A DNA stretch of 59,993 bases from Rhizobacter sp. (GCA_017881025.1 JADGRJ010000001.1:1-59993); one strand, 5' to 3'. Positions 42,033 to 59,993 are shown, numbered from the stretch's first letter. A program made the numbers and translations. Notes: generated by a model not told the origin, from the sequence alone.

Positions 42033-42060
42033 CGCCGACCGGCGCGCAGCGCGGCCGGCG

Positions 42061-42777: not shown

Positions 42778-42841
42778 CGGGGTTCCTGTCACCGTGCGGT
42801 CGCCGGCAGGATCGCCCGCCGACGGTGACGTGGCGGCGCGA

Positions 42842-43498
42842 TTATCGGCGCGGCGGCATCGCCTGGCGCATCGACTCCATGCGCTTCATGCGATCTTCCC
42901 GGCGCGCCTGGCGGTCGCGGATGCGCTCGCCGAGGCGCACGCGCTGCTCGGGCGTCAGGACCCGGGCGACGTCGAGCATCGCCTGCGTCATGCGCCGGCT
43001 CATCTGGTCGTGCTGCTGCAGCATCTGCTGGCGCACCTGCTCGGCGGCGGCGGCGTCGATGGTCGGCGCGGTGAACGCCTGCATCGCGCGCTGGCGCAGG
43101 CCGCGACCGGCCTCGGCCTGCGCCTTCAGGTCGGCGGCCGCCGCGGCGGCGATCTGCTTGATCTGGCCGCGCTGCGCGTCGCTTGCGTTGAGGCCGTCGA
43201 GCATGTGATCGATCATCCGGCCCATGCGCTCGGGCGAGCCGCCGAACATCATGCCGCCGCCCATCTCGCGATGCATGCCGCCCATGCCGTGGTGCATGTC
43301 GTCCATGCCCCGGCCGTGCTCGCCGCGACCCGGGAACGACATGCCGGCGCCTCGGTCGCCCATGCCCGGAGGCGGCGCCGGCTGGGCCCACGCCGAGGCG
43401 CCCAGCGCGGCGAGCAGCGTCAGCAGCATGCCGATCATCACCACCTGGACGCGACGCGCGGCCGACGCCGATGCCACGATTGCCACTGCCTTGCTCAT
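42842..43498 (-). CDS. Spy/CpxP family periplasmic chaperone
   Basis: Signal peptide, Met/Gly/His-rich segment, LNASDAQ and LTPEQR motifs. Confidence 0.88.
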   Translation of the reverse strand: MSKAVAIVASASAARRVQVVMIGMLLTLLAALGASAWAQPAPPPGMGDRGAGMSFPGRGEHGRGMDDMHHGMGGMHREMGGGMMFGGSPERMGRMIDHMLDGLNASDAQRGQIKQIAAAAAADLKAQAEAGRGLRQRAMQAFTAPTIDAAAAEQVRQQMLQQHDQMSRRMTQAMLDVARVLTPEQRVRLGERIRDRQARREDRMKRMESMRQAMPPRR

Positions 43499-43573
43499 CA
43501 CTTGCTCCTTCGCCCGATCGTCGGGAATTGCAATGATGGTGACGATGCGTCGTGAGTCCAGCTTGGCCGCGGG

Positions 43574-43717: not shown

Positions 43718-44809
43718 GTGCTGATCGTCTTGCTTGGGTTGATTGCGTTCGGCGTGGCGGTGCCCTGGGCCATCGCGGCCTTGTTCCTGAAAGGCGAAGA
43801 CCTGTCGGCCTTCGACCGTCCGGCCGGCGAGCGCCCCTCCGCCGGGCCCGAACCGAGCGCCGAACTGAAGGCCGTCGTCGCGTCGCTGTCCGGCATCCGC
43901 GACGCGCTGCGAGGCGTTCCGCTCAGAGGACGCATCGCGGCACTGCGCCGGTACATCGACGAGCTGTTCGGCAATCGCGCGTTCGACGCCACCTTCCTGC
44001 CGGTCGATTGCGCGGGCGTGCCCGCGGAGTGGGTGCTCTCGCCCGGCGCCGACGGCGCCCGGCGCACGCTCTACATCCACGGCGGCGGATTCGTCATCGG
44101 CAGCCCGCGCAGCCATCGCACGCTGACGACGCGGTTCTCCGCCATGACCGGCGGTGCCGTGCTCGCGATCGACTATCGCCTGATGCCCGAGCATCGCCGC
44201 ATGGCCGGTGTCGAGGATTGCCGGACGGCCTACCGCTGGATGCTCGACAACGGCCCCGATGGTCCGCAAGCCGCGCAGGCGGTGTTCGTCGCCGGCGAAT
44301 CCGCCGGCGGCAACCTGGCGCTGGCGCTGATCGCCTGGGTCCGCGATCAGGGGCTGCGGGCACCCGACGCCGCGGTCGCGCTGTCGCCCGCGACCGACGG
44401 CACGCTCGCGAGCCCGAGCCTGCGCGCCAACCGGCGCAGCGATGCGATGCTCGGCCCCCTGTACGGCCCTCTCGCGAGGCTGCCGCAGTGGGTGCTGCTG
44501 TGGATGGCGTGGATCGCCAACCGGATCAATCCGAGAAACCCGGTGATCTCGCCCGTGTACGGCGACCTGTCCAACCTCCCGCCCGTGCTGGTGCATGCGA
44601 GCGAGGCGGAAATGCTGCTCGACGACGGTCGCCGCTACGTCAACCGCGCCCGGGCGGCCGGCTCGCCGGCGACACTGCAGACGTGGGGCCACGTGGTGCA
44701 TGCCTGGCAAATCTTCAACCCCGAGCTGCCCGAGGCGGTCGCCGCGCTGGAAGAGATCGGCAAGTTCCTCGCCGCCGCCGCCCCTCCGGCCGGCGCTGTG
44801 CCTCGCTGA
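43718..44809 (+). CDS. HSL-family esterase/lipase with N-terminal membrane anchor
   Basis: HGGG, DYRL, GESAGG, HVVHAW. Confidence 0.9.
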   Translation: MLIVLLGLIAFGVAVPWAIAALFLKGEDLSAFDRPAGERPSAGPEPSAELKAVVASLSGIRDALRGVPLRGRIAALRRYIDELFGNRAFDATFLPVDCAGVPAEWVLSPGADGARRTLYIHGGGFVIGSPRSHRTLTTRFSAMTGGAVLAIDYRLMPEHRRMAGVEDCRTAYRWMLDNGPDGPQAAQAVFVAGESAGGNLALALIAWVRDQGLRAPDAAVALSPATDGTLASPSLRANRRSDAMLGPLYGPLARLPQWVLLWMAWIANRINPRNPVISPVYGDLSNLPPVLVHASEAEMLLDDGRRYVNRARAAGSPATLQTWGHVVHAWQIFNPELPEAVAALEEIGKFLAAAAPPAGAVPR

Positions 44810-44904: not shown

Positions 44905-46377
44905 ATGAAAGCCCTGAGCGGATTGGATGGCGCCTTCCTCCATCTCGAGACCCCCGAAACGCCGATGCACGTCGGCTCGTTGCACCTGTTCGACCTGCCG
45001 CCGGGGTACCGGGGCGACTTCCACGCCAACATCAAGCGGCAGATGAAGTCGCGCATCCATCTTGCGCCGGTCTTCACGCGCAAGCTCGCGCCGATGCCGC
45101 TTCAGTTCGCCAATCCGGTCTGGGTCGAAGACGACCGCGTCGATCTCGACCACCACGTGCATCGGGTCACGCTGCCGCACCCCGGAACGCACGCCCAGCT
45201 CGAGGATTGCGCCGGCAGGCTGCACTCGGAGCTGCTCGATCGCAGCCGCCCGCTCTGGCGCCTCTACGTCTTCGACGGCCTGGAGAGCGGTCAGGCGGCC
45301 TACTACATCAAGGTCCACCACGCGGTCCTCGACGGCCAGGCCGGCGTGCTGCTGGCGCAGGCGCTGTTCGACGTGACCGCCAAGGCGCGGCAGCTCCCGC
45401 ACGGCTCCGGCGCGCAGGGCGAGCATCCGGGCCTGGCCGCTCTCGCCGCGGCCGCGCTCAAGCACGACGCCGGCCAGTACATCAAGCTGCTGCGCCACCT
45501 GCCCGATGTCGTGAAGACGCTCGCGGGCCTGTTCCGGGCCGCGCCCGGCGAGGTCAAGGGCCGGCTCGGGCAGAACTTCTCGTTCGGTCCGAAGACGCCG
45601 CTCAACGTCGCGGTGACCGGCGAACGCGGCTTCGCGGCGGTGTCGATCCCGATCGCCACGCTCAAGGCGCTGGCCCAGGCGCACGACGCCAAGCTCAACG
45701 ACATCGTGCTGGCGCTGTGCGGCGGCGCCCTGCGCCGCTACCTGGCCAGGCACGGCGGCCTGCCGAAGAAGCCGCTGATCGCGTCGATGCCGATCTCCCT
45801 GCGCAAGCCCGGCAACACCGACTTCACGACGCAGGCGACGCTGAGCCTGGTCAACCTGAACACCCACATCGCCGATCCGCTGAAGCGCCTGCGCGCCATC
45901 CGCGACGCGGCGGGTGCCGTCAAGGCGCTCGCCCAGCGCGCCAACAGCCTGATCCCGACCGACTTCCCGTCGATCGGCGTGCCTTGGGTCCTGCACGCGC
46001 TGGCATCGCTCTACGGACGATCCAGCGTAGCCAGCGCCATGCCGCCGATCGCCAACGTCGTGATCTCCAACGTCGCGGGACCGCAGGTGCCGCTCTATGC
46101 GGCGGGCGCGCGCATGGCCACCTACTGGCCGCTGTCGATCGTCGAGCACGGCCTCGGGCTCAACATCACGGTAATGAGCTACGCGGGCGCCATGGGATTC
46201 GGATTCACGACGGCACGCGCCGCCGTTCCCGATGCGCGCGAGCTGTCGGCGGCGCTGCTGGAGGCGCTCGACGAGCTCGTGGCGCGGAGCCGGCCCGCGG
46301 CGAAGAAGAAGACGGCGCCGGGCAAGAGCTCCAGCCGCGCAGCGGGCTCTACTGCGCGGGCACGGCCAGCCGGGTGA
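44905..46377 (+). CDS. Wax ester synthase/diacylglycerol acyltransferase 1
   Basis: LSGLDGAFLHLETPETPMHVG, LDRSRPLW, HHAVLDG (HHxxxDG), NVVISNVAGP. Confidence 0.95.
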   Translation: MKALSGLDGAFLHLETPETPMHVGSLHLFDLPPGYRGDFHANIKRQMKSRIHLAPVFTRKLAPMPLQFANPVWVEDDRVDLDHHVHRVTLPHPGTHAQLEDCAGRLHSELLDRSRPLWRLYVFDGLESGQAAYYIKVHHAVLDGQAGVLLAQALFDVTAKARQLPHGSGAQGEHPGLAALAAAALKHDAGQYIKLLRHLPDVVKTLAGLFRAAPGEVKGRLGQNFSFGPKTPLNVAVTGERGFAAVSIPIATLKALAQAHDAKLNDIVLALCGGALRRYLARHGGLPKKPLIASMPISLRKPGNTDFTTQATLSLVNLNTHIADPLKRLRAIRDAAGAVKALAQRANSLIPTDFPSIGVPWVLHALASLYGRSSVASAMPPIANVVISNVAGPQVPLYAAGARMATYWPLSIVEHGLGLNITVMSYAGAMGFGFTTARAAVPDARELSAALLEALDELVARSRPAAKKKTAPGKSSSRAAGSTARARPAG

Positions 46378-47803
46378 CCTCGTTCGCCCACGGCAGCATC
46401 AGCGTCAGCAGCAGCAGCTTTTCGAACTCCGGCGCGAAGCGGTCGATGATCCTCTGCGGGTCGGGGCAGCGCCGGCGATCGGCGATCAGGCCGAACTGCA
46501 CGCCGCCGGCGTACGAGACGATGCTCAGGCCGACGCCGACGTTGCCCGACGACGGAACCCAGAAGATGCTCTGCCGCAAGGTGCTGCCGCAGAACACCAC
46601 GGGCTCGGTCGGGCCGGGAACGTTCGTCATCACCGCGGTGGTCTTCTTCAGGAAGACGTCGGACAGCGCATCCTGCAGCGACTTGGTCAGCACGCCCGAC
46701 ACCGCCAGGAGCGCGTAGGCGAGCAGCGGCTGGTAGCTGCCCTTGAGCTCGCTCATGCGCGCGCGCACGGCGTAGAGGCACTCGACCGCGTTGTCGATGC
46801 CGATCGGCAACACCACCGGCGCCAGGCCGAAGCGGTTGCCGAGCTGCCAGGCCTCGTCGAGCGGACGCAGGTTCACCGGCACCATGGCACGGATCTCCTT
46901 GCCTGCGGGGTCTTCGCCGCGCTCGCGCAGGTAGCCGCCGATCGCGCTTGCGGCGCATGCGAGCAGCACATCGTTGACCGAGCAGTTCATGGCCTTGCCG
47001 ACCGCCTTGACGTCGGCGAGCGGCAGCGGCTCGCACCACGCCACGACCTTGTCGCCGCTGAGCGGGCCCTTGAGCAGGGTCGGCGAATCGTCGGCCAAGA
47101 GGGCGAGCGCGGCGGCGTCGCGGAGGACCCGGTAGCCGGCTCGCGCCAGCTTCACGGAGTCGTCCGCCGATCGTTGCGGGTGGGCGAGGAGCTCCATCGC
47201 CTTCACCACGCCGTCGCCGTACATGCCGATCGCCTTGACGGTGACATCGGTGAGTGGCCTGACCACCGCGTCTGCGAGCCAGTCGCCGTCGTCGGCATCT
47301 TGCCCGCCATCGCGCGCCGGCCGGTGCAGGTCGGTGCCGCCGTCGGCGATCGACAACAGCACCGAGTTCAGGGCGATGCCGTCGGCGATGCAGTGGTGGA
47401 TGCGCACGATCAGCGCGCTGCCGTCCTCGTAGCGATCGATCAGGTGGATCTGCCACAGCGGGTGCGCCGGGTCCAGCGGGGTGGCGGCGAGCTCGCTGAC
47501 ACGTGCCTGGAGGGCAGAACGTTCGCTCTGGCCGCGCTTCCTCACCAGCTTTTCGCGGACGAGGTGGCGGTCGATGTCGAAATCGTCGTCGTCGACCCAG
47601 TGGGAGAGCAAGGCCTCCTGAACGGCCTTCTGGCGGAATCGCAGGTAAGAGAGAAACCGCGATTGGAGGCGCTCGCGCAATGCCGCGCGGTCGAGCGCCG
47701 GCCGCAGCAGCCAGATGCCGACGATCATCATGAGGTTGACGCGGCTGTCCATGCGCAGCCAGGCCGTATCGACACGCGACATCCGCTCGGAACTTGGGGT
47801 CAT
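46349..47803 (-). CDS. Wax ester synthase/diacylglycerol acyltransferase 2
   Basis: MSRVDTAWLRMD, LDPAHPLW, HHCIADG, VPVNLR, TNVPGP; 3' end overlaps WS/DGAT 1 by 29 bp. Confidence 0.95.
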   Translation of the reverse strand: MTPSSERMSRVDTAWLRMDSRVNLMMIVGIWLLRPALDRAALRERLQSRFLSYLRFRQKAVQEALLSHWVDDDDFDIDRHLVREKLVRKRGQSERSALQARVSELAATPLDPAHPLWQIHLIDRYEDGSALIVRIHHCIADGIALNSVLLSIADGGTDLHRPARDGGQDADDGDWLADAVVRPLTDVTVKAIGMYGDGVVKAMELLAHPQRSADDSVKLARAGYRVLRDAAALALLADDSPTLLKGPLSGDKVVAWCEPLPLADVKAVGKAMNCSVNDVLLACAASAIGGYLRERGEDPAGKEIRAMVPVNLRPLDEAWQLGNRFGLAPVVLPIGIDNAVECLYAVRARMSELKGSYQPLLAYALLAVSGVLTKSLQDALSDVFLKKTTAVMTNVPGPTEPVVFCGSTLRQSIFWVPSSGNVGVGLSIVSYAGGVQFGLIADRRRCPDPQRIIDRFAPEFEKLLLLTLMLPWANEVTRLAVPAQ

Positions 47804-47876
47804 TCGGGCACTCCCAGGATCAGGTTGGCGACCACGCCCAGGGCGTGCCTCGGCGTCACGCCTGATCCCTGATCGC

Positions 47877-47979
47877 ATTGGACAGTCGGCGCCTGAAGGC
47901 GGGACTGACGAAGCGCAAGGAAAAAGCACGCCCGGATCTGATGCCGCTCAAAGCGCCCGAAGCGCCCGAGTCGTCTACT
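47877..47979. promoter_or_regulatory. Two FNR/CRP-family-like boxes in the divergent WS/DGAT 2 / acyl-CoA ligase promoter region
   Basis: CTGAC-GAAG-CGCAA (47905-47918) and CTGAT-GCCG-CTCAA (47938-47951); weak -10-like hexamers 29.5 bp outward on each side. Confidence 0.45.
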
Positions 47980-48059
47980 GGAGCTTGGTCGACCGTGCCG
48001 CTCTCCTGGCGGACCACGGCCGCTGGTGCAGGCATCTTCGCTGTCGAGGAGTGACGAGA

Positions 48060-49787
48060 GTGGACAAGATCTGGCTGAAGAACTATCCCCCGGGCATCCC
48101 GGCCGTGGTGGATCTGAACGAGTTCTCCTCGCTGAAGGACGTGCTGGAGCACAGCTGTCGGCGCTTCGGCGCGCTGCCGGCCTACAGCAACATGGGCTCT
48201 TCGATCAGCTACGCGCAGCTCGATCAGGCGAGCCGGGACTTCGCGGCCTATCTGCAGCAGACGGTCGGGTTGAAGAGGGGCGCCCGGGTCGCGATCATGA
48301 TGCCCAACCTGCTGCAGTATCCGGTCGCCCTGTTCGGCGTCCTGAGGGCGGGTCTGGTGGTGGTGAACGTCAACCCGCAATACACACCCTCGGAACTCGA
48401 GCATCAGCTCAAGGATTCGGGGGCGGCGGCGATCGTGGTGCTGGAGAACTTCGCCCACACCGTGCAAGAGGTGCTCGACCGCAATCCGGGGCTGACGCTG
48501 ACGGTCGTCACCACGGAAGTGGGAGACATGCTGCCGGTGCTCAAGGAGGTCCTCACCAACGTCGTCGTCAAGTACGTGAAGAAGATGGTGCCGGGCTGGA
48601 AGATCGCCGGCGCCACCGAGTTCAATGCGGCCCTGCGCGCCGGCCATGGACTTCGGCTCGACGAGGTGCCTCTGACGCACGGCGACACGGCCTTCCTCCA
48701 GTACACCGGCGGCACGACCGGCGTCGCCAAGGGGACGGTGCTCAGCCACGGCAACCTCGTCGCCAACCTGCAACAGCTCGGCGCATGGATCGCGCACGAC
48801 CTCGACGAGGGCAAGGAAGTGTTCGTCTGCCCGTTGCCGCTCTATCACGTCTTCGCGCTGACCTCGAGCCTGATGTTCATGAAGATCGGCGCGCACGCGA
48901 TCCTCGTCACCGATCCGCGCAACATGGAGGCGTTCCTCCACGACCTTCGCAAGTACCCGTTCACCGCGATGATCGGCGTCAACACGCTGTACCGGGGGCT
49001 GCTCGACGCGCCCGGGTTCGATGACGTCGACATGCGCAGCTTCAAGCTGGCGAGCGCCGGGGGGATGGCCGTCCAGCGCGTCGTCGCCGAACGCTGGGCG
49101 AAGGCCACCGGCGTGCCGCTCATCGAGGGCTACGGCCTCACCGAAACCTCGCCGGTCGTGATCTCGAATCCGCTCGACATCGAGCAGTGGACCGGGACCA
49201 TCGGCGTGCCGATCCCCTCCACCGAGGCCGCGATCCTGAACGACGACGGCGGCGAGGTCGTGCTCGGCGAGGTCGGCGAGATCTGCGTGCGCGGGCCGCA
49301 GGTCATGGTTGGCTACTGGAACCGCCCCGACGAGACCGAACGCGCGTTCACCGCCGACGGCTGGTTCAGGACCGGCGACCTTGGCACCATGGACGAGCGC
49401 GGCTACTTCAGGATCACCGACCGCAAGAAGGACATGATCATCGTCTCCGGATTCAAGGTCTTTCCGAACCAGATCGAGGATGTCGTGGCCTTGCACCCGG
49501 GCGTCGCCGAGGTCGGGGCGATCGGCGTGGCGGACGAGAGGTCGGGCGAGGCGGTCAAGATCGTCGTCGTCCGCAAGGATCCCGCGCTGACCGAGCAGGC
49601 TCTGCTCGAGCACTGCCGCCAGCACCTGACCGGATACAAGATCCCGAAGATCGTCGAGTTCCGTACCGAGCCGCTGCCGAAGTCGAACCTCGGCAAGATT
49701 CTGCGGCGCCAGTTGCGCGACGCGGCGGTCGCGCCGCCGGCGCCCTCCCCGGGCGCCCGATCGAGCCCCGGTGTTCCCGCGGCGTGA
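48060..49787 (+). CDS. fadD: Long-chain fatty acid-CoA ligase
   Basis: KIWLKNYP, QYTGGTTGVAKG, EGYGLTETSP, GWFRTGD, DRKKDMIIVSGF, LPKSNLGKILRR. Confidence 0.95.
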   Translation: MDKIWLKNYPPGIPAVVDLNEFSSLKDVLEHSCRRFGALPAYSNMGSSISYAQLDQASRDFAAYLQQTVGLKRGARVAIMMPNLLQYPVALFGVLRAGLVVVNVNPQYTPSELEHQLKDSGAAAIVVLENFAHTVQEVLDRNPGLTLTVVTTEVGDMLPVLKEVLTNVVVKYVKKMVPGWKIAGATEFNAALRAGHGLRLDEVPLTHGDTAFLQYTGGTTGVAKGTVLSHGNLVANLQQLGAWIAHDLDEGKEVFVCPLPLYHVFALTSSLMFMKIGAHAILVTDPRNMEAFLHDLRKYPFTAMIGVNTLYRGLLDAPGFDDVDMRSFKLASAGGMAVQRVVAERWAKATGVPLIEGYGLTETSPVVISNPLDIEQWTGTIGVPIPSTEAAILNDDGGEVVLGEVGEICVRGPQVMVGYWNRPDETERAFTADGWFRTGDLGTMDERGYFRITDRKKDMIIVSGFKVFPNQIEDVVALHPGVAEVGAIGVADERSGEAVKIVVVRKDPALTEQALLEHCRQHLTGYKIPKIVEFRTEPLPKSNLGKILRRQLRDAAVAPPAPSPGARSSPGVPAA

Positions 49788-49811: not shown

Positions 49812-50483
49812 TCAGAACCGATACCAGAGGCCGAGCGAATAGGTGATCGGCTTCAGGTCGATGGTGGTCCTGACTTCGACCGGGACCGGCACGCCGGGAA
49901 TCGTGGCGATGGCATCGACATCGCTCTTGACGTCGAGGCGAGCGACCGAGGCGAACAGGCCCCAGTCCTTGCGCACGGCGTAGCTCAGGCCGGCCTGCAG
50001 CGCCCAGCCCCAGGAATCGCTCATGTCGAGCTTGCTGGTCGGCAGGCTCGAGCGGATGGCGGTGAATTTCGTGTAGTTGATGCCCGCCCCCACGTACGGC
50101 CGCAGCGCGTTGGCCGGATCGCCGAAGTAGTAGTTCAGCAGCAGGGTCGGCGACACGTTCTTCGTCGACAGCAGCTCGTCGCCGAGCGCCGCGGCCGCGC
50201 CGGTCCCCTTGGCCTTGATGCGCGGCGGCACGCCGAGCGCGAGCTCGATGCCGAGGTTCGGCGTCAGCGAGCGCTCGATGACCAGCAGCAGGGTCGTTGC
50301 GTCACCGGTCTCGGCATCTGCGCCGGCGGGAAATACCGGCGGAGTGGCCGTGAGCCCGTTCGAGCTCGAGTGGGTCGTGTACCGGGTGGCACCGAGCTTG
50401 ACGACGTTGTCCTGCGCCTGCACGGCCGTGGCGGCCAAGGCAGCGGCGATCGCCGCTGTGAAGATGCTTGTCTTGAGTTTCAT
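49812..50483 (-). CDS. ompW: OmpW/AlkL family outer membrane protein
   Basis: GGAGGAG RBS, signal peptide, IELALGVPP, SPTLLLNYYF, RPYVGAGINYT, terminal YRF. Confidence 0.9.
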   Translation of the reverse strand: MKLKTSIFTAAIAAALAATAVQAQDNVVKLGATRYTTHSSSNGLTATPPVFPAGADAETGDATTLLLVIERSLTPNLGIELALGVPPRIKAKGTGAAAALGDELLSTKNVSPTLLLNYYFGDPANALRPYVGAGINYTKFTAIRSSLPTSKLDMSDSWGWALQAGLSYAVRKDWGLFASVARLDVKSDVDAIATIPGVPVPVEVRTTIDLKPITYSLGLWYRF

Positions 50484-50536: not shown

Positions 50537-50554
50537 TGTTGACGGCAGTCAACA
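50537..50554. promoter_or_regulatory. FNR/ANR-type box upstream of ompW
   Basis: Perfect palindrome TGTTGAC-GGCA-GTCAACA; minus-strand CAGGAT 29.5 bp from the centre. Confidence 0.75.
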
Positions 50555-50626: not shown

Positions 50627-50667
50627 TTGCTCTGCATCAATACACGGCCCGCACCGCTGGGTATGGT
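50627..50667 (+). promoter_or_regulatory. FNR-type box plus -10 for the 22-mer repeat protein
   Basis: TTGCT-CTGC-ATCAA followed by TATGGT 28.5 bp from the centre. Confidence 0.6.
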
Positions 50668-50695: not shown

Positions 50696-51421
50696 ATGGC
50701 AACTCAAGCGACCCCCTCCAAGAAAGCGACAGCAGTCCGGCGCCGCGCTGCCGGAGTCGCTCGCCCGCCCGCACGGCGCAAGACGACTGCAACGGCGAAG
50801 TCGAAGCCCGTCCGAAAGGCTCCCTCGCTCGGCAAGGCGGGGACGGCGGTCCGGGCCGGGGTCATCGACCGCCTGAAGGCGCTCACGGCGCTCGAGAGCG
50901 AGATCGCGCGGCTCAGCCGGGGCGCGGTGGCCGAAGCGCTCGCGGTCGCCGGCATCACCGCGAGGGAAGTGACGGCGATCCTGCGCGATGTCGTCGTCGG
51001 CGCGATCGAAGCCGCGGGGCGGGCCGGCAGCGAGTTGACGGTGAGCATCAAGGGCGTCGCCAAGGGCGCCATCGCCGGCGTGCACGACGCGCGCGGCAAT
51101 CTGACCCAGGCGGCCGGAACGATCGTGAAGACCGCGATCGCGCAGGCAAGCAGGATCGGCGCCGAAGCGGGCCCGGTGGCGCGTAGCGCGCTGGACGGCA
51201 TCCGCGAGGGCGCGACCGAAGCCGGCGCGAACGCCGTCGCCGTCGTCAGCGCGAGCGTCAGGAGCGCGTTGGCGGCAGCGAGCGAGATCAACGCCCTGGC
51301 GGCCGAGGCGGTGCGCCAGGTGGTGGTCGGATCGGCCGAAGGCATCGCCGAGGTCGTCAAGTCGCACCGCGCGACACCGAAGCCGCGGCGTGCGGGAGCC
51401 AAGCGCCTGCGGTCCGCGTGA
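50696..51421 (+). CDS. Hypothetical protein with basic tails and ~6.5 tandem 22-residue amphipathic repeats
   Basis: K/R/A/P-rich N- and C-termini; visible 22-aa periodicity; no catalytic motif. Confidence 0.8.
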   Translation: MATQATPSKKATAVRRRAAGVARPPARRKTTATAKSKPVRKAPSLGKAGTAVRAGVIDRLKALTALESEIARLSRGAVAEALAVAGITAREVTAILRDVVVGAIEAAGRAGSELTVSIKGVAKGAIAGVHDARGNLTQAAGTIVKTAIAQASRIGAEAGPVARSALDGIREGATEAGANAVAVVSASVRSALAAASEINALAAEAVRQVVVGSAEGIAEVVKSHRATPKPRRAGAKRLRSA

Positions 51422-51490: not shown

Positions 51491-52744
51491 ATGGGCCCAC
51501 GCGTTCGCCTCCGCGGTTCGGACCTGCGCGGCGCTGCCCGCCTCGCGACCAATGCGACCTCGGGCCTGACCGACCTGGTCGAGGCGATGCACGAACGCAT
51601 CGCCCGCACCGCGGGCATGACCGCGCCGGCCGCGGACGGCCGCACGGGCGGCATCACCGGCATCGTCTACAAGACGATTCGCGGCGTCACCCGCGTTGTC
51701 GGCGGCAGCATCGATTCCCTGTTGGGGCTCCTCGCTCCGGCATTGCCCGCGGAAGACCACAGCCCGGAGCGCGAGGCGATCGTCGCGGCCTTGAACGGCG
51801 TGCTCGGCGACTATCTCGCGGCCACCGCCAACCCGCTCGCCACGAGCATGGCGTTGCGCCGCGACGGGCGTCGGCTCGATCTCGAGGCCGCGGCGCTGAA
51901 GGCGCGCATGCCGGCCGCCGGCGGCCGCCTGCTGGTGCTGCTGCACGGCCTGTGCATGAGCGACCTTCAATGGACGCGCCGGGACCACGATCACGGCGCG
52001 GCGCTCGCTCGCGACCTCGGCTACACGCCGGTCTACCTGCACTACAACAGCGGTCTGCACATCTCGATCAACGGGCATGCGCTCGCGAACCTGCTCGAGC
52101 GTCTGATCGACCAGTGGCCCGCCCCGCTGGATCGATTCGTGCTGCTCGGACACAGCATGGGCGGCCTGCTGGCGCGCAGCGCGCTCCACTACGGAGCCGA
52201 GGCCGGCCACCGCTGGCCGTCGCGGTTGGACGACCTCGTGTTCCTCGCGACGCCGCATCAGGGCGCACCGCTTGAGCGCGCCGGCAACTGGGTCGACATC
52301 CTCCTCGGGGCGACGCCCTATGCGGCGCCTCTCGCACGCCTCGGCAAGCTGCGCAGCGCCGGCATCACCGACCTGCGCCACGGCTGTCTGGTCGACGAGG
52401 ACTGGGTCGGACGCGATCGCTTCGCGCCCGGCCCGGCCCCGCGCCATCCCCTTCCGCTCCCGGAGGCGGTGCGCTGCTACGCGATCGCGGCGAGCCTGGG
52501 CCAGGGCGGCGGCGATCTGAAGGATCGCCTGCTCGGCGACGGCCTGGTGCCGCTGGCCAGCGCCCTGGGCCGACACGCCGATCCGGACCGGTCGCTGCGA
52601 ATCGCCGAGGACCGGCAATGGATCGGCTACGGCATGAACCATCTCGACGTGCTCGGCGATGCCGGCGTGTATGCGCGGCTCGGGCAGTGGCTGGCCGCGC
52701 CCGGGACCACGTCGACGAGAGCATCGCTCGCCAGCCCCCCATGA
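51491..52744 (+). CDS. PGAP1-like alpha/beta hydrolase (lipase/esterase)
   Basis: LLHGLC, YNSGLHIS.NG, GHSMGG, TPHQGAPLE, GDGLVP, MNHLD. Confidence 0.88.
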   Translation: MGPRVRLRGSDLRGAARLATNATSGLTDLVEAMHERIARTAGMTAPAADGRTGGITGIVYKTIRGVTRVVGGSIDSLLGLLAPALPAEDHSPEREAIVAALNGVLGDYLAATANPLATSMALRRDGRRLDLEAAALKARMPAAGGRLLVLLHGLCMSDLQWTRRDHDHGAALARDLGYTPVYLHYNSGLHISINGHALANLLERLIDQWPAPLDRFVLLGHSMGGLLARSALHYGAEAGHRWPSRLDDLVFLATPHQGAPLERAGNWVDILLGATPYAAPLARLGKLRSAGITDLRHGCLVDEDWVGRDRFAPGPAPRHPLPLPEAVRCYAIAASLGQGGGDLKDRLLGDGLVPLASALGRHADPDRSLRIAEDRQWIGYGMNHLDVLGDAGVYARLGQWLAAPGTTSTRASLASPP

Positions 52745-53472
52745 CAGCCGCCGACGCGATCCTCGGGCACCTGAAAGTCGTCGACGCCGAGCGGCAGCGG
52801 CGAGCGGCGCTGCCGGAACTGGACGCCAGGGTCCACTCGCTGAAGGAATATCAGCAGCGACGCTTCTCGCAGACGTACGCCGACCTGCTGCTCAGCACGC
52901 GCTACGGAGCCGCCTCGCGCTACTTCCTCGACGAGCTGTACGGCGCGAAGGATTTCACCCGTCGCGACCGCCAGTTCGCTCGGGTCGCGCCGGCCATCGT
53001 ACGATTGTTCCCGAGCGAGCTCGCCCAGACGATCGTGACCCTGGCCGAGTTGCATGCGTTGTCCGAGACCCTGGACACGGCCATGGGCATGCAGCTCACG
53101 AGCGCGCGGATCGGCGCCGTCGACTACATCCGCGCGTGGCAAGGCGTCGGCCGCGCACCCGACCGGGAACGCCAGATCGCGCTGACGCTCGGCATCGCCG
53201 CACAGCTCGATCGGCTGACGCGCCTGCCGCTGCTGCGCAACAGCCTGCGCTTGATGCGCGGGCCGTCCCGCGCCGCGGGTCTTTCCGAGCTGCAGCGCGT
53301 GCTGGAGACCGGGTTCGACACCTTCCGGGCGATGAAAGGCGCGCAAGAGTTCATCGCGCTCATCGGCTCGCGCGAGCGTGACTTCGCCGCCGCGCTCTTC
53401 TCGGCACAGCCGAATGGCGCCGACGCCGATTCCTCGATGCAAGGTGCCCTGGCCAGCCTGCCTTCGCCGTGA
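52741..53472 (+). CDS. Conserved hypothetical protein with FFLEELY-like motif (YFLDELYG)
   Basis: YQQRRFSQTYADLL...YFLDELYG..DFTRRD.QF; ATGA overlap with the hydrolase. Confidence 0.75.
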   Translation: MTAADAILGHLKVVDAERQRRAALPELDARVHSLKEYQQRRFSQTYADLLLSTRYGAASRYFLDELYGAKDFTRRDRQFARVAPAIVRLFPSELAQTIVTLAELHALSETLDTAMGMQLTSARIGAVDYIRAWQGVGRAPDRERQIALTLGIAAQLDRLTRLPLLRNSLRLMRGPSRAAGLSELQRVLETGFDTFRAMKGAQEFIALIGSRERDFAAALFSAQPNGADADSSMQGALASLPSP

Positions 53473-53520: not shown

Positions 53521-53611
53521 TGGTGGAGAGGGTGGGATTCGAACCCACGTTACGGTGAAACCGTAAACCAGATTTCGAGTCTGGCGCATTCGACCACTCT
53601 GCCACCTCTCC
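53521..53611 (-). tRNA. tRNA-Ser(CGA)
   Basis: GGAGAGG/CCTCTCC acceptor stem, CCAGA-CTCGAAA-TCTGG anticodon arm, long variable arm, GGTTCGAATCC, encoded CCA. Confidence 0.97.
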
Positions 53612-55965: not shown

Positions 55966-57162
55966 ATGAAGAGCGAGACGACGCTGCGCGGCCGAGCCGC
56001 TCCCCTGGCCCTGGCTGTGCTCGCCGTCCTGAGCGCCTGCGGTGGCGGCGGCACCGCCGGCGAGTCGATCGCGCCGGCGGCGACGGCGCTCTCGGCCGAG
56101 GCGGCGCTCGGCGAGAAGATCTTCGCCGACCCGTCGCTCTCGGCGTCGGGGCGGCAGTCGTGCGCGAGCTGCCACGATCCGGAGCGCGGTCATTCGCCGG
56201 CCAACCCCCTCGCCGCGCAACTCGGCGGGCCGAACGGTGACCTGCAGGGAACGCGCAAGGCGCCGGGGATCCGCTACCTCGCGACCAATCTGCCTTTCTC
56301 CTTCGCCGCCGACGGCACGCCGACCGGCGGCTTCTTCTGGGACGGGCGCGCCCCAACGTTCGCGGCGCAGGCGACCGAGCCCTTCCTGAATCCCTTCGAG
56401 ATGGCCAACGCCGACAAGGCGAGCGTCGTCGCCAAGCTCGCCGCCGCGCCTTACGCAGCCGAGTTCAGGGAGGTCTTCGGTGCGGGCGTCTTCGCCGACG
56501 TCGAGGGCGCGTACCTGCGCCTGTCGCTCGCGCTCCAGCAATACGAGCGCGAGGACGTCGAGTTCAACGCCTACAGCAGCAAGTACGACGCCTTTCTGCG
56601 CGGCCGCGCGGCGCTGAGCGACGCGGAGCTGCGCGGCCTCGCGCTCTTCAACTCCCCCGCCAAGGGCAACTGCGCCGCCTGCCATCCCTCGTCGCGCACC
56701 GATGGCAAGGCGCCGCTCTTCACCGACTTCAGCTACGACAACCTCGGCGTCCCGCGCAATCCCGAGATCGCCCGCAATGCCGACCCGGCGTACTTCGACC
56801 TCGGCCTGTGCCAGCGCGCCGACCTGGCACCGCGCGGCGACCTCTGCGGCGCGTTCAAGGTGCCGTCGCTTCGCAACGTCGCGCTGCGCGAGGCGTTCTT
56901 CCACAACGGCCGCTTCAAGACGCTGAAGGACGCGCTCACCTTCTACGTCCAGCGCGACACGAATCCCGAGAAGTGGTACCCGCTCGCGGGCGACGGCACG
57001 GTGAAGAAGTTCGACGATCTGCCGCCCGAGTACCACGTCAACGTCAACACCAGCGAGGCGCCGTACGACCGCCGCCCCGGCGACGCGCCGGCGCTGTCCG
57101 ACGCCGAGATCGACGATGTCATCGCCTTCCTGAGAACGCTGAGCGACGGCTACGTCCGCTAG
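55966..57162 (+). CDS. Di-heme cytochrome c peroxidase/MauG family lipoprotein
   Basis: Lipobox LSAC, CASCH and CAACH, FFWDGRA, FKVPSLRNV, FHNG. Confidence 0.9.
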   Translation: MKSETTLRGRAAPLALAVLAVLSACGGGGTAGESIAPAATALSAEAALGEKIFADPSLSASGRQSCASCHDPERGHSPANPLAAQLGGPNGDLQGTRKAPGIRYLATNLPFSFAADGTPTGGFFWDGRAPTFAAQATEPFLNPFEMANADKASVVAKLAAAPYAAEFREVFGAGVFADVEGAYLRLSLALQQYEREDVEFNAYSSKYDAFLRGRAALSDAELRGLALFNSPAKGNCAACHPSSRTDGKAPLFTDFSYDNLGVPRNPEIARNADPAYFDLGLCQRADLAPRGDLCGAFKVPSLRNVALREAFFHNGRFKTLKDALTFYVQRDTNPEKWYPLAGDGTVKKFDDLPPEYHVNVNTSEAPYDRRPGDAPALSDAEIDDVIAFLRTLSDGYVR

Positions 57163-57209
57163 ACCGTCGCGCTCGCCCGACCTCCTCCACTTCGACGAAG
57201 GAAAGCTCC

Positions 57210-58526
57210 ATGACCTCCCATCGCCTGCGCGCCTCAGCCGCGAGTGCCTGCATCGCCGCGAGCCTCGCGCTCGCAGCCGGACCGGCGCTCGCGCAGAGCG
57301 CGAGCGAAAGCGAACTGGCGCGCCGGCTCGACCAGCTCGCCGCCGAGCTCGCCGGCGTCAAGGCCGAGCTGGCGCGACTGCAGAGCGCGCGCGCGGCCGC
57401 GCCGCAAGCGGCAGCGCCCGCAGCCTCGAGCGCCGTCCCGGTCGTCGCCGCCGCGCCGCAAGGCCCGGGCCTTTCGCTCGAGCCGGCGACGGTACTGACG
57501 AGCTACGGCGAGATCAACTACAACCGGCCGACGCGCGACAGCAAGAACGCGGTCGCCGACGTGCGCCGCTTCGTCCTCGGCTACCAGCATCGCTTCGACG
57601 ACAAGACCAAGGTCGTCACCGAGCTCGAGGTCGAGCACGCGGTGTCGTCGGCCGACGATCGCGGCGAGGTCGAGGTCGAGCAGGCCTACATCGAGCGCCA
57701 GCTGGCGCGCCAGTGGGCAGTGCGCGCCGGGCTCTTCCTCATTCCCGCCGGCCTCCTCAACGAGAACCACGAGCCGACCGCGTACTACGGCGTCGAGCGC
57801 AACTTCGTCGAGACGGCGATCATCCCGAGCACCTGGCGCGAAGGCGGAATCCAGGTCGTCGGCGCATTCGACAACGGCCTGACGACGCAGTTCGGCGTGA
57901 CCACCGGCTTCGACCTCACCAAGTGGGACGCGACCTCGAGCGAAGGCGCCGACTCGCCGCTCGGCGCGATCCACCAGGAGCTCTCGCTCGCCAAGGCACG
58001 CGACCTCTCGGTGTTCGGCGCGATCAACTACCGCGGCGTCCCGGGCCTGCTGCTCGGCGCCTCGATCTTCACCGGCGGCGCGACGCACGGCCAGTCGCCC
58101 GATCGCGCCCGCGTCACGCTCTGGGACCTGCATGCGCGCTACACGCCAGGTCGCTGGGACCTCGCCGCGCTCTACAGCCGCGGCACGATCTCGAACACCG
58201 CGGCGTTCAACATGCCGCTCGTCGGCGGCACGACCCTGATCCCGAAATCATTCGACGGCTGGTATGCGCAGGCGGCGTACAAGGTGTGGTCGAACGCCGA
58301 CTATTCGCTCGCGCCGTTCGTTCGCTGGGAAGAGTTCAACACCGCGCGCAGCTTCGCGTCGCTCGGCGCCGGCCTCACGCCCGATGCCGGGCGCACGGAG
58401 CGAGTCGCCACCGTCGGCGCCAACTTCTCCATCGGCAGCGGCGTCGTCCTCAAGGCCGACTACCAGCGCTTCCGCGAGAACCGCGATGCCAATCGGTTCG
58501 ACCTCGGCTTCGGCTGGAGCTTCTAG
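57210..58526 (+). CDS. Outer membrane porin-like beta-barrel with N-terminal coiled coil
   Basis: Signal peptide, YGEINYNR, ELEVEHA, VEQAYI, NENHEPT.YYGVERN, terminal GWSF. Confidence 0.82.
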   Translation: MTSHRLRASAASACIAASLALAAGPALAQSASESELARRLDQLAAELAGVKAELARLQSARAAAPQAAAPAASSAVPVVAAAPQGPGLSLEPATVLTSYGEINYNRPTRDSKNAVADVRRFVLGYQHRFDDKTKVVTELEVEHAVSSADDRGEVEVEQAYIERQLARQWAVRAGLFLIPAGLLNENHEPTAYYGVERNFVETAIIPSTWREGGIQVVGAFDNGLTTQFGVTTGFDLTKWDATSSEGADSPLGAIHQELSLAKARDLSVFGAINYRGVPGLLLGASIFTGGATHGQSPDRARVTLWDLHARYTPGRWDLAALYSRGTISNTAAFNMPLVGGTTLIPKSFDGWYAQAAYKVWSNADYSLAPFVRWEEFNTARSFASLGAGLTPDAGRTERVATVGANFSIGSGVVLKADYQRFRENRDANRFDLGFGWSF

Positions 58527-58529
58527 GCC

Positions 58530-59075
58530 ATGCGGCTGACCCTCGCCGTCCTCGCCGGCGCCGTCGCGGCGGCGCCGGCGAGCGCTTTCGCGGTCGATTA
58601 CCTGAGCGCCGAGCAGGCCGCGCAGCTGATGTTCCCCGAGGCCGACCGCTTCGAGCCGCGCGAGATCGCCCTCGATGCGGCGCAACTGCAAGGCCTCGCG
58701 GCGCAGGGCGTCCGCGGCCGCTCGGCGCGCTGGCCGGTGCGCGTCGCACAGCGCGGCGGCGCAACGCTCGGCTACGTCGTCGCCGACGAGGTGCTCGGCA
58801 AGTTCGAGCTGATCTCGTACGCCGTCGGCATCGACCTCGACGGCGCGGTGAAGCAGGTCGAGATCCTCTCGTACCGCGAAAGCCACGGCGGCGAGGTGCG
58901 CCTGCCGGCTTGGCGGCACCAGTTCGTCGGCAAGACGCTGGCGGCGCCGCTGCGCGTTGGCGACGACATCGCCAACATCAGCGGCGCGACGCTGAGCTGC
59001 ACGCACCTCACCGAAGGCGTGCGAAGGATCGTCGCCGTCGTCGCGCTGGCGCGGCGAACCGGGAGCCTGGGCTGA
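58530..59075 (+). CDS. Exported FMN-binding (flavinylated) domain protein
   Basis: Signal peptide, YRESHGGEV, NISGATLS flavinylation motif. Confidence 0.88.
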   Translation: MRLTLAVLAGAVAAAPASAFAVDYLSAEQAAQLMFPEADRFEPREIALDAAQLQGLAAQGVRGRSARWPVRVAQRGGATLGYVVADEVLGKFELISYAVGIDLDGAVKQVEILSYRESHGGEVRLPAWRHQFVGKTLAAPLRVGDDIANISGATLSCTHLTEGVRRIVAVVALARRTGSLG

Positions 59076-59164
59076 ACCCGCCATCGACGCCGACCCGCGA
59101 CGAGCACAGGCGCGCAGCGCCGCTGCGGCGGCCGGCGGCGCGGCGGTCGGCCGGCGCGCGCATC

Positions 59165-59893
59165 GTGCGGCGGGCGCGGCCATTGCTCGGCACGCTGGTC
59201 GAGATCGGCGTGCTCGCGGAAACGTCGCGCGCTGGCGCCGAAGCGGCGATCGCGGCCGCGTTCGATCGCATCGCCGCCGTGCAGAAGCGCCTGTCGCGCT
59301 TCGATCCGCGCAGCGAGATCGCCCGCTTCAACGCTGCGCCTGCCGGCGCGTGCATCGAGCTCGGCGACGACGCCCAGCGCGTCCTCGCCGCCGCGCGCGA
59401 GCTGCACGACGCAAGCGGTGGCGTCTTCGATGTCACGCTCGGCAGCGGCAGCGATGCCTGGCATCGCGAGGGCCGCGTCCTGCGCAAGCTGAGCGCGGCG
59501 GTGCGGATCGATCTCGGCGGCATCGGCAAGGGCCACGCCGTCGACGGCGCCGTCGACGCGCTCGTCGCCGCCGGCGTGACGTCCGGCTGGGTCAACGCCG
59601 GCGGCGACCTGCGCGCCTTCGGCGCCGCGACGGTTCCGATCGACCTGCGCGACGAAGACGGCGGCGGCGTGCGTCGCTTCGCCAGCCTCGGCGACGGCGC
59701 GTTCGCGACCAGCCGCCTCGCCGCCGGCGACAGCCGGGTTCGCCATGCCAGCGTCGCGGCGCCATGCTGCCTCTGGGCCGACGCGCTCACCAAGCTCGTC
59801 ATCGCGAGCGGCGACGCCGGGCACCCGCTGCTCGCGCGCTACCGCGCGCGCGCCTGGCTGCACGGATCGCGCCCGGGCGCGAGCGACGCCTGA
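59165..59893 (+). CDS. apbE: FAD:protein FMN transferase (start codon uncertain)
   Basis: LGTLVEI, SEIARFN, FDVT, DLGGIGKGHAVD, VNAGGDL, ATS, ADALTK. Confidence 0.88.
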   Translation: MRRARPLLGTLVEIGVLAETSRAGAEAAIAAAFDRIAAVQKRLSRFDPRSEIARFNAAPAGACIELGDDAQRVLAAARELHDASGGVFDVTLGSGSDAWHREGRVLRKLSAAVRIDLGGIGKGHAVDGAVDALVAAGVTSGWVNAGGDLRAFGAATVPIDLRDEDGGGVRRFASLGDGAFATSRLAAGDSRVRHASVAAPCCLWADALTKLVIASGDAGHPLLARYRARAWLHGSRPGASDA

Positions 59894-59993
59894 TGCCGCG
59901 CACCGTCCATCGCCTCGCCGCCTGGCAGCGCGCCGCGCTGTTCGGCGCCGGCGCGGTGCTGCTGGCGAGCGGCGCTGCCTGGCTGGCGCTGCA
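59893..59993 (+). CDS. Membrane protein, 5' part only, translationally coupled to apbE
   Basis: TGATG overlap; MPRTVHRLAAWQRAALFGAGAVLLASGAAWLAL. Confidence 0.65.
   Translation, partial: MPRTVHRLAAWQRAALFGAGAVLLASGAAWLAL

What the first reader, a model, noticed from the sequence alone, without database searches (positions are those of the whole stretch)
50696..51421. Apolipoprotein/perilipin-like 22-mer repeat protein with basic tails: candidate droplet coat
Seen: consecutive 22-aa units AVAEALAVAGITAREVTAILRD / VVVGAIEAAGRAGSELTVSIKG / VAKGAIAGVHDARGNLTQAAGT / IVKTAIAQASRIGAEAGPVARS / ALDGIREGATEAGANAVAVVSA / SVRSALAAASEINALAAEAVRQ / VVVGSAEGIAEVVK; no aromatic or Cys residues, no signal peptide; K/R-rich ends. 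Known: 11/22-mer amphipathic repeats bind lipid surfaces in apolipoproteins, perilipins and synuclein, and basic AKP-type tails tether inclusions to DNA in PhaF and Rhodococcus MLDS. Inference: a droplet scaffold that may also tether droplets to the nucleoid.
Basis: partly seen in the sequence, partly recalled or inferred. Interest (0 to 1): 0.75.

Follow-up and report, generated by a model that had tools for sequence, protein, structure and literature searches.

The report
Low-oxygen helical-repeat scaffold protein
This is a real gene for an unnamed bacterial protein made of eight 22-residue helices with positively charged tails; it is likely switched on when oxygen runs low, is predicted to fold as a compact coil of helices, and would most likely act as a scaffold on stored-fat droplets or similar internal compartments, which has not been tested.

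Summary
The 241-aa ORF has eight 22-residue repeats (lag-22 z 5.7, hydrophobic peak at 98°), no F/W/Y/C and basic tails. It is not an apolipoprotein, perilipin, phasin or DUF6781 member. It belongs to an unnamed family (207 clusters at 50% identity) with no Pfam or NCBIfam model. With an alignment, AlphaFold2 predicts a compact helix-turn solenoid (pLDDT 86). Its best fold matches are de novo designed proteins such as DHR4.

New here: an FNR/Anr-type box lies 55 nt upstream. It is kept in 4 of 4 close relatives and in 3 of 8 distant loci, and the same motif precedes 7 of 12 USP hits in this genome.

Context is split. In Burkholderiales, 9 of 9 other firm carriers have WS/DGAT (background 113 of 200), and 4 of 10 contexts have it within 6 kb. 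In 80 metagenome loci of one distant clade, the gene sits in a DUF5132–HMA_2–X–P2A ATPase–MetK operon, with WS/DGAT in 0 of 80.

Best reading (0.35): a hypoxia-induced scaffold for lipid-bounded inclusions with an optional DNA tether. A soluble DNA-organising role (0.25) and a pump-accessory role (0.2) are close rivals. Lipid and DNA binding are untested.

The parts
50696..51421 (+). Gene for the 241-aa helical-repeat protein (P0001), unnamed family
   Evidence: homologues; no Pfam or NCBIfam hit; covered by RNA-library contigs of close relatives in 4 of 4 runs laid, 2 studies
50696..50818 (+). Basic, predicted disordered N-terminal tail (residues 1-41, net +13)
   Evidence: pLDDT 54-62 and no secondary structure
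50837..51364 (+). Eight 22-residue repeats (residues 48-223); each is predicted as one helix of about 18 residues plus a G-[GA]-[DNE] turn
   Evidence: periodicity, family profile; helices 45-85, 89-110, 114-131, 136-153, 158-176, 180-198, 200-225
51365..51418 (+). Short basic C-terminal tail (net +7 over the last 19 residues)
50627..50640 (.). FNR/Anr-type inverted repeat (1 mismatch to TTGAY-N4-RTCAA), 55 nt upstream of the ATG; likely control site of this gene
   Evidence: kept in L002-L005 including the two loci without ompW
50662..50667 (+). -10-like hexamer TATGGT, 28.5 nt from the box centre, about the spacing of a class II FNR promoter (spacing recalled)
   Evidence: TATGGT or TACGGT in L002-L005; the sigma-70 scan found no full promoter
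50539..50552 (.). Perfect FNR-type box that goes with the divergent ompW gene
   Evidence: only exact match in the window; present in L002 and L005, which have ompW, and not in L003 and L004, which lack it
49812..50483 (-). OmpW-family outer-membrane protein, divergent; present in 2 of 4 close relatives
47715..49787 (+). Long-chain fatty acid-CoA ligase (FadD-like; true start probably near 48060)
46349..47929 (-). Wax ester synthase/diacylglycerol acyltransferase (WS/DGAT) 2
   Evidence: TIGR02946, 348 bits, over the cut-off
44905..46377 (+). WS/DGAT 1
   Evidence: TIGR02946, 413 bits, over the cut-off
43718..44809 (+). Hormone-sensitive-lipase-family hydrolase (GESAG motif)
51491..52744 (+). 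PGAP1-like alpha/beta hydrolase, 69 nt downstream on the same strand; follows the gene in 4 of 4 close relatives
   Evidence: RNA-library contigs of X2, X3 and X5 bridge the two genes, which does not prove one transcript
52741..53472 (+). FFLEELY-motif protein, overlapping the hydrolase stop
   Evidence: NF047641

Best explanation
The gene encodes a member of an unnamed family of eight 22-residue amphipathic helices that is likely switched on by an FNR-type regulator at low oxygen, is predicted to fold as a compact solenoid, and would most likely work as a non-enzymatic scaffold on the surface of lipid-bounded inclusions (here wax-ester or triacylglycerol droplets), with basic tails that likely grip DNA or another polyanion. 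Shown: the repeat, the family, the tails, the conserved box and the gene neighbours. Predicted: the solenoid fold. Inferred: induction at low oxygen; that the solenoid opens or lies on a lipid surface, as exchangeable apolipoproteins open their bundles (recalled); and DNA binding by the tails. In the anaerobic relatives the same domain would serve a compartment built around a P2A pump and DUF5132/HMA_2 proteins.
For: Weakly hydrophobic, aromatic-free amphipathic repeats like perilipin 4. The most frequent sub-cut-off Pfam matches over 105 members are surface-coating families: Senescence 11, Phasin_2 5, Apolipoprotein 3; the senescence domain targets lipid droplets (abstract starts of PMC8079945 and PMC10801920). 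The gene sits between FadD and a lipase-like gene next to two WS/DGATs; in G042 FadD abuts the same hydrolase directly, so the gene was gained or lost at that spot. WS/DGAT is present in 9 of 9 other firm Burkholderiales carriers against 113 of 200 in the family sample, and lies within 6 kb in 4 of 10 contexts. Other neighbours include patatin (G393, G355), an HSL lipase (G508) and caleosin (G772). The FNR-type box is upstream in this clade and in 3 of 8 distant loci at 1 mismatch or fewer; the motif is enriched in the genome (40+40 against 8+14 control) and precedes 7 of 12 USP hits. In the distant clade the neighbours are the accessory families of ferrosome and calcyanin loci. Tails of net +5 or more occur in 48 of 105 members; MucR fusions in 8 of 61 hits.
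Against: The alignment-based model is a confident compact solenoid (pLDDT above 90 for 152 residues, pTM 0.71), which would bury the apolar faces. Conserved G-G-D turns and a core of exactly 181 residues in 88 of 105 members favour a fixed fold (I chose mostly full-length rows). The core is net acidic in most members (median -4), while perilipin 4 needs a net positive charge. There is no 11-mer signal. WS/DGAT, FadD and PGAP1 were found in 0 of 80 metagenome loci, of which only 21 are 8 kb or longer. Three of the four WS/DGAT links involve one subfamily (57-58% identical) in USP/Hsp20/hydrolase-type stress islands, so they may be one event or shared regulation. Carriers have large genomes, which inflates the 9 of 9. 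The gene is in only 4 of 48 same-genus genomes, so it is not needed to store lipid. The weak Pfam matches may be compositional. 57 of 105 members lack a strongly basic tail. No box was found upstream in L106, L109, L110 or L111, and only a 2-mismatch one in L104.
Confidence: 0.35

Rival explanations
1. It is a soluble, hypoxia-induced DNA-organising or DNA-protecting protein. The solenoid would be a stable core that self-associates, and the basic tails (or a fused MucR domain in some relatives) would bind DNA. The WS/DGAT link would only reflect shared low-oxygen control.
For: Confident compact fold. Basic tails in 48 of 105 members, on both ends in 25. MucR (PF05443) is fused in 8 of 61 hits, and MucR is an H-NS-like nucleoid protein (abstract start of PMC10746212). 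FNR-type box and stress-island neighbours such as USP, Hsp20, CBS, CsbD and BON, the gene set of the lxa/DosR type (passages of PMC3721108).
Against: 57 of 105 members, including most of those in the pump operon, have no strongly basic tail, so DNA binding cannot be the conserved role of the domain. It does not explain the fixed place in a membrane-protein operon (57 of 64 loci) or the position inside a lipid cluster here.
Confidence: 0.25
2. It is an accessory scaffold or chaperone of a P2-type cation pump. That would be its old role in the DUF5132-HMA_2-X-ATPase-MetK operon, and in Burkholderiales it would serve the P2 ATPases of the low-oxygen regulon from a distance.
For: The gene lies directly upstream of an HMA_2-bearing P2A ATPase in 57 of 64 loci with enough flank; HMA_2 is upstream in 52 of 59, DUF5132 in 39 of 45, and MetK downstream in 22 of 25. 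The pump has SERCA-like PEGL, TNLSE and WINLxxD motifs (assignment recalled). A P-type ATPase lies about 5.4 kb from the homologue in L007. This genome has P2-type ATPases on C273 and C409, contigs that also carry the box.
Against: This genome has no DUF5132, its pumps lack the HMA_2 part by tblastn, and none is near the gene. Only 1 of 10 Burkholderiales contexts showed an ATPase nearby in the ORFs I scanned. The 80 loci were the best 80 of 427 to a query from that clade, so they overstate this context. The apparent ATPase fusions (P0029, P0176, P0223) look like frameshift read-throughs.
Confidence: 0.2
3. It is a LEA-like general stress protectant, unfolded in solution and helical on drying or on membranes, with no specific partner.
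For: Small-residue, aromatic-free repeats. The single-sequence model gives long helices at low confidence (pLDDT 55, pTM 0.33). CsbD and DUF2934 fusions and stress-gene neighbours.
Against: The core is far more hydrophobic than LEA proteins (recalled), has a fixed length and conserved turns, and folds with high confidence once the alignment is given. No LEA model matched any of 105 members at E 0.1.
Confidence: 0.1

Closest known systems
Perilipin 4 amphipathic repeat region (PMC5889406, passages read)
   Same: Long tandem repeats of small apolar residues without aromatics, 3/11-type hydrophobic periodicity, low hydrophobic moment, repeats without indels.
   Different: The unit is 22 with no 11-mer signal; there are conserved Gly-Gly-Asp turns and a predicted folded solenoid, whereas Plin4 is unfolded in solution. 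The core is mostly net acidic. No perilipin model matches.
Exchangeable apolipoproteins (ApoA-I/A-IV/E, PF01442)
   Same: 22-residue amphipathic helical units; a folded helical form that may open on lipid (recalled).
   Different: No HMM match (best member 16 bits against a cut-off of 90). Units are not separated by prolines, there is no signal peptide, and Lys/Arg sit on one flank of the helix only (read from the profile).
PhaF of Pseudomonas, MLDS of Rhodococcus, HBHA (recalled; HBHA seen only as a search listing, PMC6176652)
   Same: A helical body plus a basic low-complexity tail, in an organism with several WS/DGAT genes (6 matches).
   Different: Unrelated sequence; tails on both ends, Arg/Lys-rich rather than AKP repeats; no pha gene next to it; tails are weak or absent in over half the family.
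De novo designed helical repeat protein DHR4 (5cwb) and related designs (7mwr_B, 8cwy_A)
   Same: Best fold matches of the model: Z 17.8 (rmsd 6.6, 171 aligned) and Z 15.6 (rmsd 3.7, 163 aligned); Foldseek TM 0.54 to 5cwb.
   Different: These are designed proteins with 10-16% identity and no function to transfer. The best natural chain scored Z 7.6, within the background for helical repeats.
Low-oxygen regulons: Burkholderia lxa locus, Anr/Fnr, Mycobacterium DosR (PMC3721108, passages read)
   Same: TGA-N6-TCA-type box upstream; relatives lie among USP, alpha-crystallin, nitroreductase, BON and cation ATPase genes.
   Different: I did not check whether the lxa locus holds a homologue. Here the gene lies in a lipid cluster, not in a USP island.
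Ferrosome fez clusters (bioRxiv 2020.01.10.902569) and the ccyA neighbourhood of Microcystis (bioRxiv 2024.07.07.602159)
   Same: Distant relatives of this gene lie with a small GxxxG protein (DUF5132), HMA_2/CoBaHMA proteins and a P-type ATPase.
   Different: The pump is P2A, not P1B-6, and MetK follows it. The passages read mention no such repeat protein. This genome lacks the operon.

Membership tests
Apolipoprotein A1/A4/E (PF01442) | Match to the family profile over its cut-off | tested here: not met
   0 families for P0001 at E 0.1; 3 of 105 members weak, best E 0.008, 16 bits against 90
Apolipoprotein A1/A4/E (PF01442) | Tandem 22-residue amphipathic helices | tested here: met
   lag 22 z 5.7, peak at 98.25 degrees
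Apolipoprotein A1/A4/E (PF01442) | Proline-punctuated repeats and secretion signal (recalled) | tested here: not met
   junctions are G-[GA]-[DNE]; one Pro in residues 48-223; no hydrophobic N-terminal stretch (sequence)
Perilipin (Plin1-5) | 11-mer repeat region | tested here: not met
   lag 11 z 0.0, 1.0 and 0.3 in three members
Perilipin (Plin1-5) | Weakly hydrophobic helix without aromatic residues (Plin4) | tested here: met
   no F/W/Y; moment 0.17-0.39 against 0.257 for Plin4 (different angle convention)
Perilipin (Plin1-5) | Repeats unfolded in solution, helical on lipid | tested here: inconclusive
   folded solenoid with alignment, low-confidence long helices without; predictions only
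Perilipin / apolipoprotein / phasin | Binds neutral-lipid or PHA surfaces | not testable with these tools
   needs flotation or imaging
Phasin / PhaF / MLDS | Match to a phasin or granule-protein profile | tested here: not met
   none for P0001; Phasin_2 only weakly (best E 6e-4) in 5 of 105 members; nothing relevant in NCBIfam
Phasin / PhaF / MLDS | Basic low-complexity tail of repeated AKP units (recalled) | tested here: inconclusive
   tails are basic (+13, +7) but not AKP repeats; DNA binding untested
DUF6781 (PF20572) | Profile-profile homology | tested here: not met
   hhalign probability 1% with a narrow and 10% with a diverse DUF6781 alignment; this genome's DUF6781 gene is elsewhere, on C411
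Ferrosome (fez) system | P1B-6 ATPase with D[YF]SCA and HNxxT motifs in the cluster | tested here: not met
   the pump beside the relatives has Cation_ATPase_N/C domains and a PEGL motif; no such cluster lies next to this gene
Calcyanin (ccyA) | C-terminal (GlyZip)3 domain | not tested
   no calcyanin sequence or profile was compared; the family has one GxxxGxxxG stretch (G120-G124-G128)
FNR/Anr-type low-oxygen regulon | Conserved TTGA-N6-TCAA-like box at promoter distance | tested here: met
   two FNR-like regulators at 213 and 203 bits, just under the cut-off of 228
FNR/Anr-type low-oxygen regulon | Induction at low oxygen | not testable with these tools
   only contigs of RNA runs were available
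Natural alpha-solenoid families (HEAT, ARM, TPR) | Fold or profile match to a natural solenoid | tested here: inconclusive
   no natural chain above Z 7.6 and no Foldseek match at E 0.001; a missing match does not exclude kinship

The most novel reading that the evidence does not exclude
A natural counterpart of the designed DHR4 solenoid that can open onto lipid surfaces and serves as a common scaffold for two kinds of bacterial compartment: neutral-lipid droplets made under low oxygen in Burkholderiales, and a ferrosome-like, calcium-pump-bearing compartment in Nitrospirota and Desulfobacterota. Interchangeable DNA-binding ends (basic tails or MucR) would tether the compartment to the chromosome.
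Probability: 0.15. Interest if true: 0.8.

Novelty: new variant of a known kind. Interest (0 to 1): 0.52.

Why it matters
My one search on structural droplet proteins of Betaproteobacteria listed a single paper, on mycobacterial HBHA, although 113 of 200 genomes of this bacterial family carry WS/DGAT. A small, soluble, easily made candidate with a predicted oxygen switch makes the question directly testable. The family has no profile in Pfam or NCBIfam, and its predicted fold is so far matched only by designed proteins. The same domain is a regular part of an uncharacterised P2A-pump operon that uses the accessory families of ferrosome and calcyanin loci. Finding what the domain binds would therefore inform both lipid storage under hypoxia and a possible new mineral compartment. 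If it is only a soluble stress protein, it remains a new repeat family of moderate interest.

Tried and rejected
Pfam and NCBIfam on P0001-P0003 and on 105 members: no family over a cut-off for the repeat domain. PDB by sequence: only designed helical proteins and one GCN4 fusion. Viral fold library: nothing at E 0.001. No natural solved fold was found, which is not evidence of a new fold. Plasmid tblastn with P0026: no match. ESM Atlas gave no answer for P0001 or P0002. Homotrimer prediction: no answer, score 0.08 against a mark of 0.42; not used either way. DUF6781 kinship rejected. G388 (E 8.9e-4, a 634-aa ORF in a secretion-system-like region) was dropped as a false hit. G475 (residues 7-68 only, at a contig end) was left out of the firm counts; with it, WS/DGAT presence is 10 of 10. 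Apparent fusions to P-type ATPase (P0029, P0176, P0223), GGDEF (P0093) and GNAT (P0201) were not used, as they look like frameshifts or chimeras. A longer-protein search gave only P0223, which is weak evidence on fusions. G866, the one DUF5132 carrier among 301 genomes of the phylum, has no match to the repeat family. RNA contigs cannot rank expression, so their depth was not used. A covariation test of hairpin contacts and a count of repeat-sized deletions could not be run; by eye, P0052 lacks exactly 22 residues and L109/L110 lack about 59. The sigma-70 scan found no promoter. Look-ups in earlier notes by sequence and by place found nothing.

Full report
1. Observation. The ORF at 50696-51421 (+) encodes 241 aa with 61 Ala, 26 Val, 22 Gly and no F, W, Y or C. 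Against shuffles, the core repeats at lag 22 (z 5.7) and 44 (z 6.1) but not at 11 (z 0.0). Hydrophobicity peaks at 98.25 degrees (0.273 against 0.055 +/- 0.029), and two homologues agree. That peak follows from any 22-residue amphipathic repeat and does not prove a continuous 3/11 helix (inference). The tails are net +13 and +7. Contigs from RNA libraries of close relatives cover the gene in 4 of 4 runs laid, from 2 studies. This fits a used gene but proves neither transcription nor its level.

2. Family. The single protein finds 5 relatives. A profile of these finds 207 clusters at 50% identity with E up to 0.001, 98 of them up to 1e-10. I aligned 105 mostly full-length members, leaving out fragments, short forms and most fusions. 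The unit is V-[VA]-x-[VA]-[AV]-[RK]-x-[VAT]-V-[KR]-G-[AV]-[VI]-E-[AG]-[AV]-x-[ED]-V-G-[GA]-[DE], repeated eight times. The core measures exactly 181 residues in 88 of 105 rows. No Pfam or NCBIfam model covers the domain. The weak Pfam matches are Senescence in 11, Phasin_2 in 5, Apolipoprotein in 3, GCIP_N in 3 and DUF6781 in 2 of 105, none shown over its cut-off. DUF6781 is not a homologue by hhalign. Tails of net +5 or more occur in 48 of 105 members. The domain is fused to MucR in 8 of 61 hits and singly or doubly to CsbD, DUF2934, receiver and HMA_2 domains.

3. Fold. With 46 sequences, AlphaFold2 gives pLDDT 85.6 and pTM 0.71: one long capping helix, then helices of 18-26 residues broken at each Gly turn, with disordered tails. 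Without an alignment it gives long helices at pLDDT 55 and pTM 0.33, so the compact fold depends on family information. The best fold matches are designed proteins: DHR4 (5cwb, TM 0.54, E 2e-3), 7mwr_B (Z 17.8, rmsd 6.6, 171 aligned) and 8cwy_A (Z 15.6, rmsd 3.7, 163 aligned). The best natural chain has Z 7.6. I could not inspect the coordinates, so I do not know whether an apolar surface stays exposed.

4. Local context. The gene lies after an HSL-type lipase, two WS/DGATs, FadD and a divergent ompW, and before a PGAP1-like hydrolase and an FFLEELY protein. Four close relatives (79-86% identical) keep FadD upstream and the two downstream genes, two of them without ompW; the WS/DGAT pair is seen in the two loci long enough to hold it. 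The gene was found in 4 of 48 other genomes of the genus (many incomplete, 18 candidates scored each). In G042, FadD abuts the hydrolase with no repeat gene between them. The genome has 6 WS/DGAT matches and no DUF5132.

5. A low-oxygen switch. The window holds two sites matching TTGHY-N4-RTCAA, against 0.13 matches expected, and both lie between ompW and this gene (I widened this pattern after seeing the site). The site at 50539 is kept only where ompW is kept. The site at 50627, with a -10-like hexamer 28.5 nt from its centre, is kept in all four relatives. In distant Burkholderiales loci, a box with at most one mismatch lies 69-90 nt upstream of the homologue in L007, L107 and L108 (3 of 8 scanned). 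L104 has one only at two mismatches, and L106, L109, L110 and L111 have none that close. In this genome the pattern occurs 40+40 times against 8+14 for the reversed control. It precedes 7 of the 12 USP hits within about 200 nt. Two FNR-like regulators score just under the cut-off. The lxa paper describes a TGA-N6-TCA motif shared with Anr/Fnr before USP, alpha-crystallin, nitroreductase and cation-ATPase genes (PMC3721108, passages). Induction itself is inferred.

6. Other Burkholderiales. Samples gave 9 of 400 genomes in the family (5 full-length, 2 short forms, 1 doubtful fragment, 1 dropped) and 1 of 400 in the order. Counting this clade once, there are 10 firm contexts. WS/DGAT lies within 6 kb in four: here, G309, G393 and G454. 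By chance about 1 in 100 genes would (my estimate from about 3 copies in 5.5 Mb). However, the last three enzymes are one subfamily (57-58%), only 44% identical over 228 residues to the WS/DGAT here, and they sit in stress islands. That may be two events, not four. All 9 other firm carriers have WS/DGAT somewhere, against 113 of 200 in the background (not size-matched). The other neighbours mix lipid genes (patatin, HSL lipase, caleosin) and stress genes (USP, Hsp20, CBS, nitroreductase, CsbD, BON, VIT1).

7. Distant relatives. A metagenome scan with a closer alignment gave 427 confirmed matches; the best 80 were kept, so they represent one clade. Among loci with enough flank, DUF5132 is upstream in 39 of 45, HMA_2 in 52 of 59, an HMA_2-bearing P2A ATPase directly downstream in 57 of 64, and MetK in 22 of 25. 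WS/DGAT, FadD and PGAP1 were found in 0 of 80 (loci not dereplicated, 21 are 8 kb or longer). MetK records name Thermodesulfovibrionales, Nitrospirota and one Planctomycetota; a MucR fusion is named Syntrophobacteraceae. GxxxG and R-rich HMA proteins with a P-type ATPase build ferrosomes (bioRxiv 2020.01.10.902569; first fifth of the text and passages read). DUF5132 and CoBaHMA/HMA_2 genes flank ccyA in Microcystis (bioRxiv 2024.07.07.602159, passages). CoBaHMA is proposed to bind anionic lipids (bioRxiv 2025.12.07.689555, passages). Supplements of these preprints were not seen and might list this family. Four earlier notes of this scan describe the same operon; I found them only after my own counts, and they are not independent support.

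8. Mechanism. The domain has no sign of an active site, turns up with different partners, and often carries a DNA-binding end. Two settings recur: storage lipid plus low-oxygen genes, and a pump operon with compartment-type accessory proteins. One role that fits both is a scaffold on a lipid-bounded inclusion, and I give it 0.35. The Plin4-like chemistry supports it (PMC5889406, passages). The confident closed fold, the acidic core and the 0 of 80 count weigh against it. A soluble DNA-organising protein (0.25), a pump accessory (0.2) and a LEA-like protectant (0.1) remain open.

9. Novelty. It works, at best guess, like PhaF or MLDS (recalled), but it is a member of none of the families tested. 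My literature searches found no paper on this repeat family or on the DUF5132-ATPase-MetK operon. The family has no name to search by, and subscription journals are largely missing. Verdict: a real, undescribed family; first reading partly supported; new variant of a known kind; interest 0.52.

Noticed in passing
G000:C411:3552-4280 (L142): DUF6781 protein with an Ala/Pro/Lys/Arg-rich C-terminal tail, found in 46 of 48 same-genus genomes. It follows an acetoacetyl-CoA reductase-like gene (read by eye) in several relatives and precedes a gene that looks like an ABC1/UbiB kinase in other families. It is a good candidate for a PhaF-like PHA-granule protein; one paper search gave only an unrelated hit.
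   Followed up: partly
L013-L092, e.g. L034:543-6456: Conserved operon DUF5132 - HMA_2 - repeat protein - HMA_2/P2A ATPase - MetK, often with further divergent HMA_2 genes and next to phosphate ABC transporter-like genes.
   Followed up: partly
window 50539-50552 and 49812-50483: ompW and its perfect FNR-type box move together: both are present in L002 and L005 and both are absent in L003 and L004. RNA-library contigs X1 and X5 also skip this stretch.
   Followed up: yes
L109:2758-3180, L110:9391-9816: Short 141-142-aa members keep the first and last helices but lack about 59 inner residues. L109 lies after a phasin-like ORF (by eye), patatin and USP.
   Followed up: partly
L111:12000-12650: A bacterial caleosin-family gene (PF05042, E 4e-31) 2 kb from the homologue in G772, among CsbD, VIT1 and BON genes.
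   Followed up: no
P0163-P0165, P0168, P0172, P0175, P0187, P0196: Repeat domain fused to one or two MucR/Ros zinc-finger domains in Syntrophobacteraceae-like proteins.
   Followed up: no
L107:10104-10736 and L110:9797-10375: An unannotated ORF with a similar 'LAxAPxGAGLLYAVxWF' stretch lies right beside the homologue in two genera, once divergent and once downstream; no Pfam hit.
   Followed up: no
window 55966-59993: Cluster that reads by eye as a cytochrome c peroxidase-like gene, a porin-like gene, an FMN-binding protein and an ApbE-like flavin transferase; not scanned.
   Followed up: no
window 40671-43555: Two-component pair with an LTXXQ (CpxP/Spy-like) protein.
   Followed up: no
window 53521-53611: tRNA-Ser(CGA) on the minus strand just after the FFLEELY gene.
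   Followed up: no
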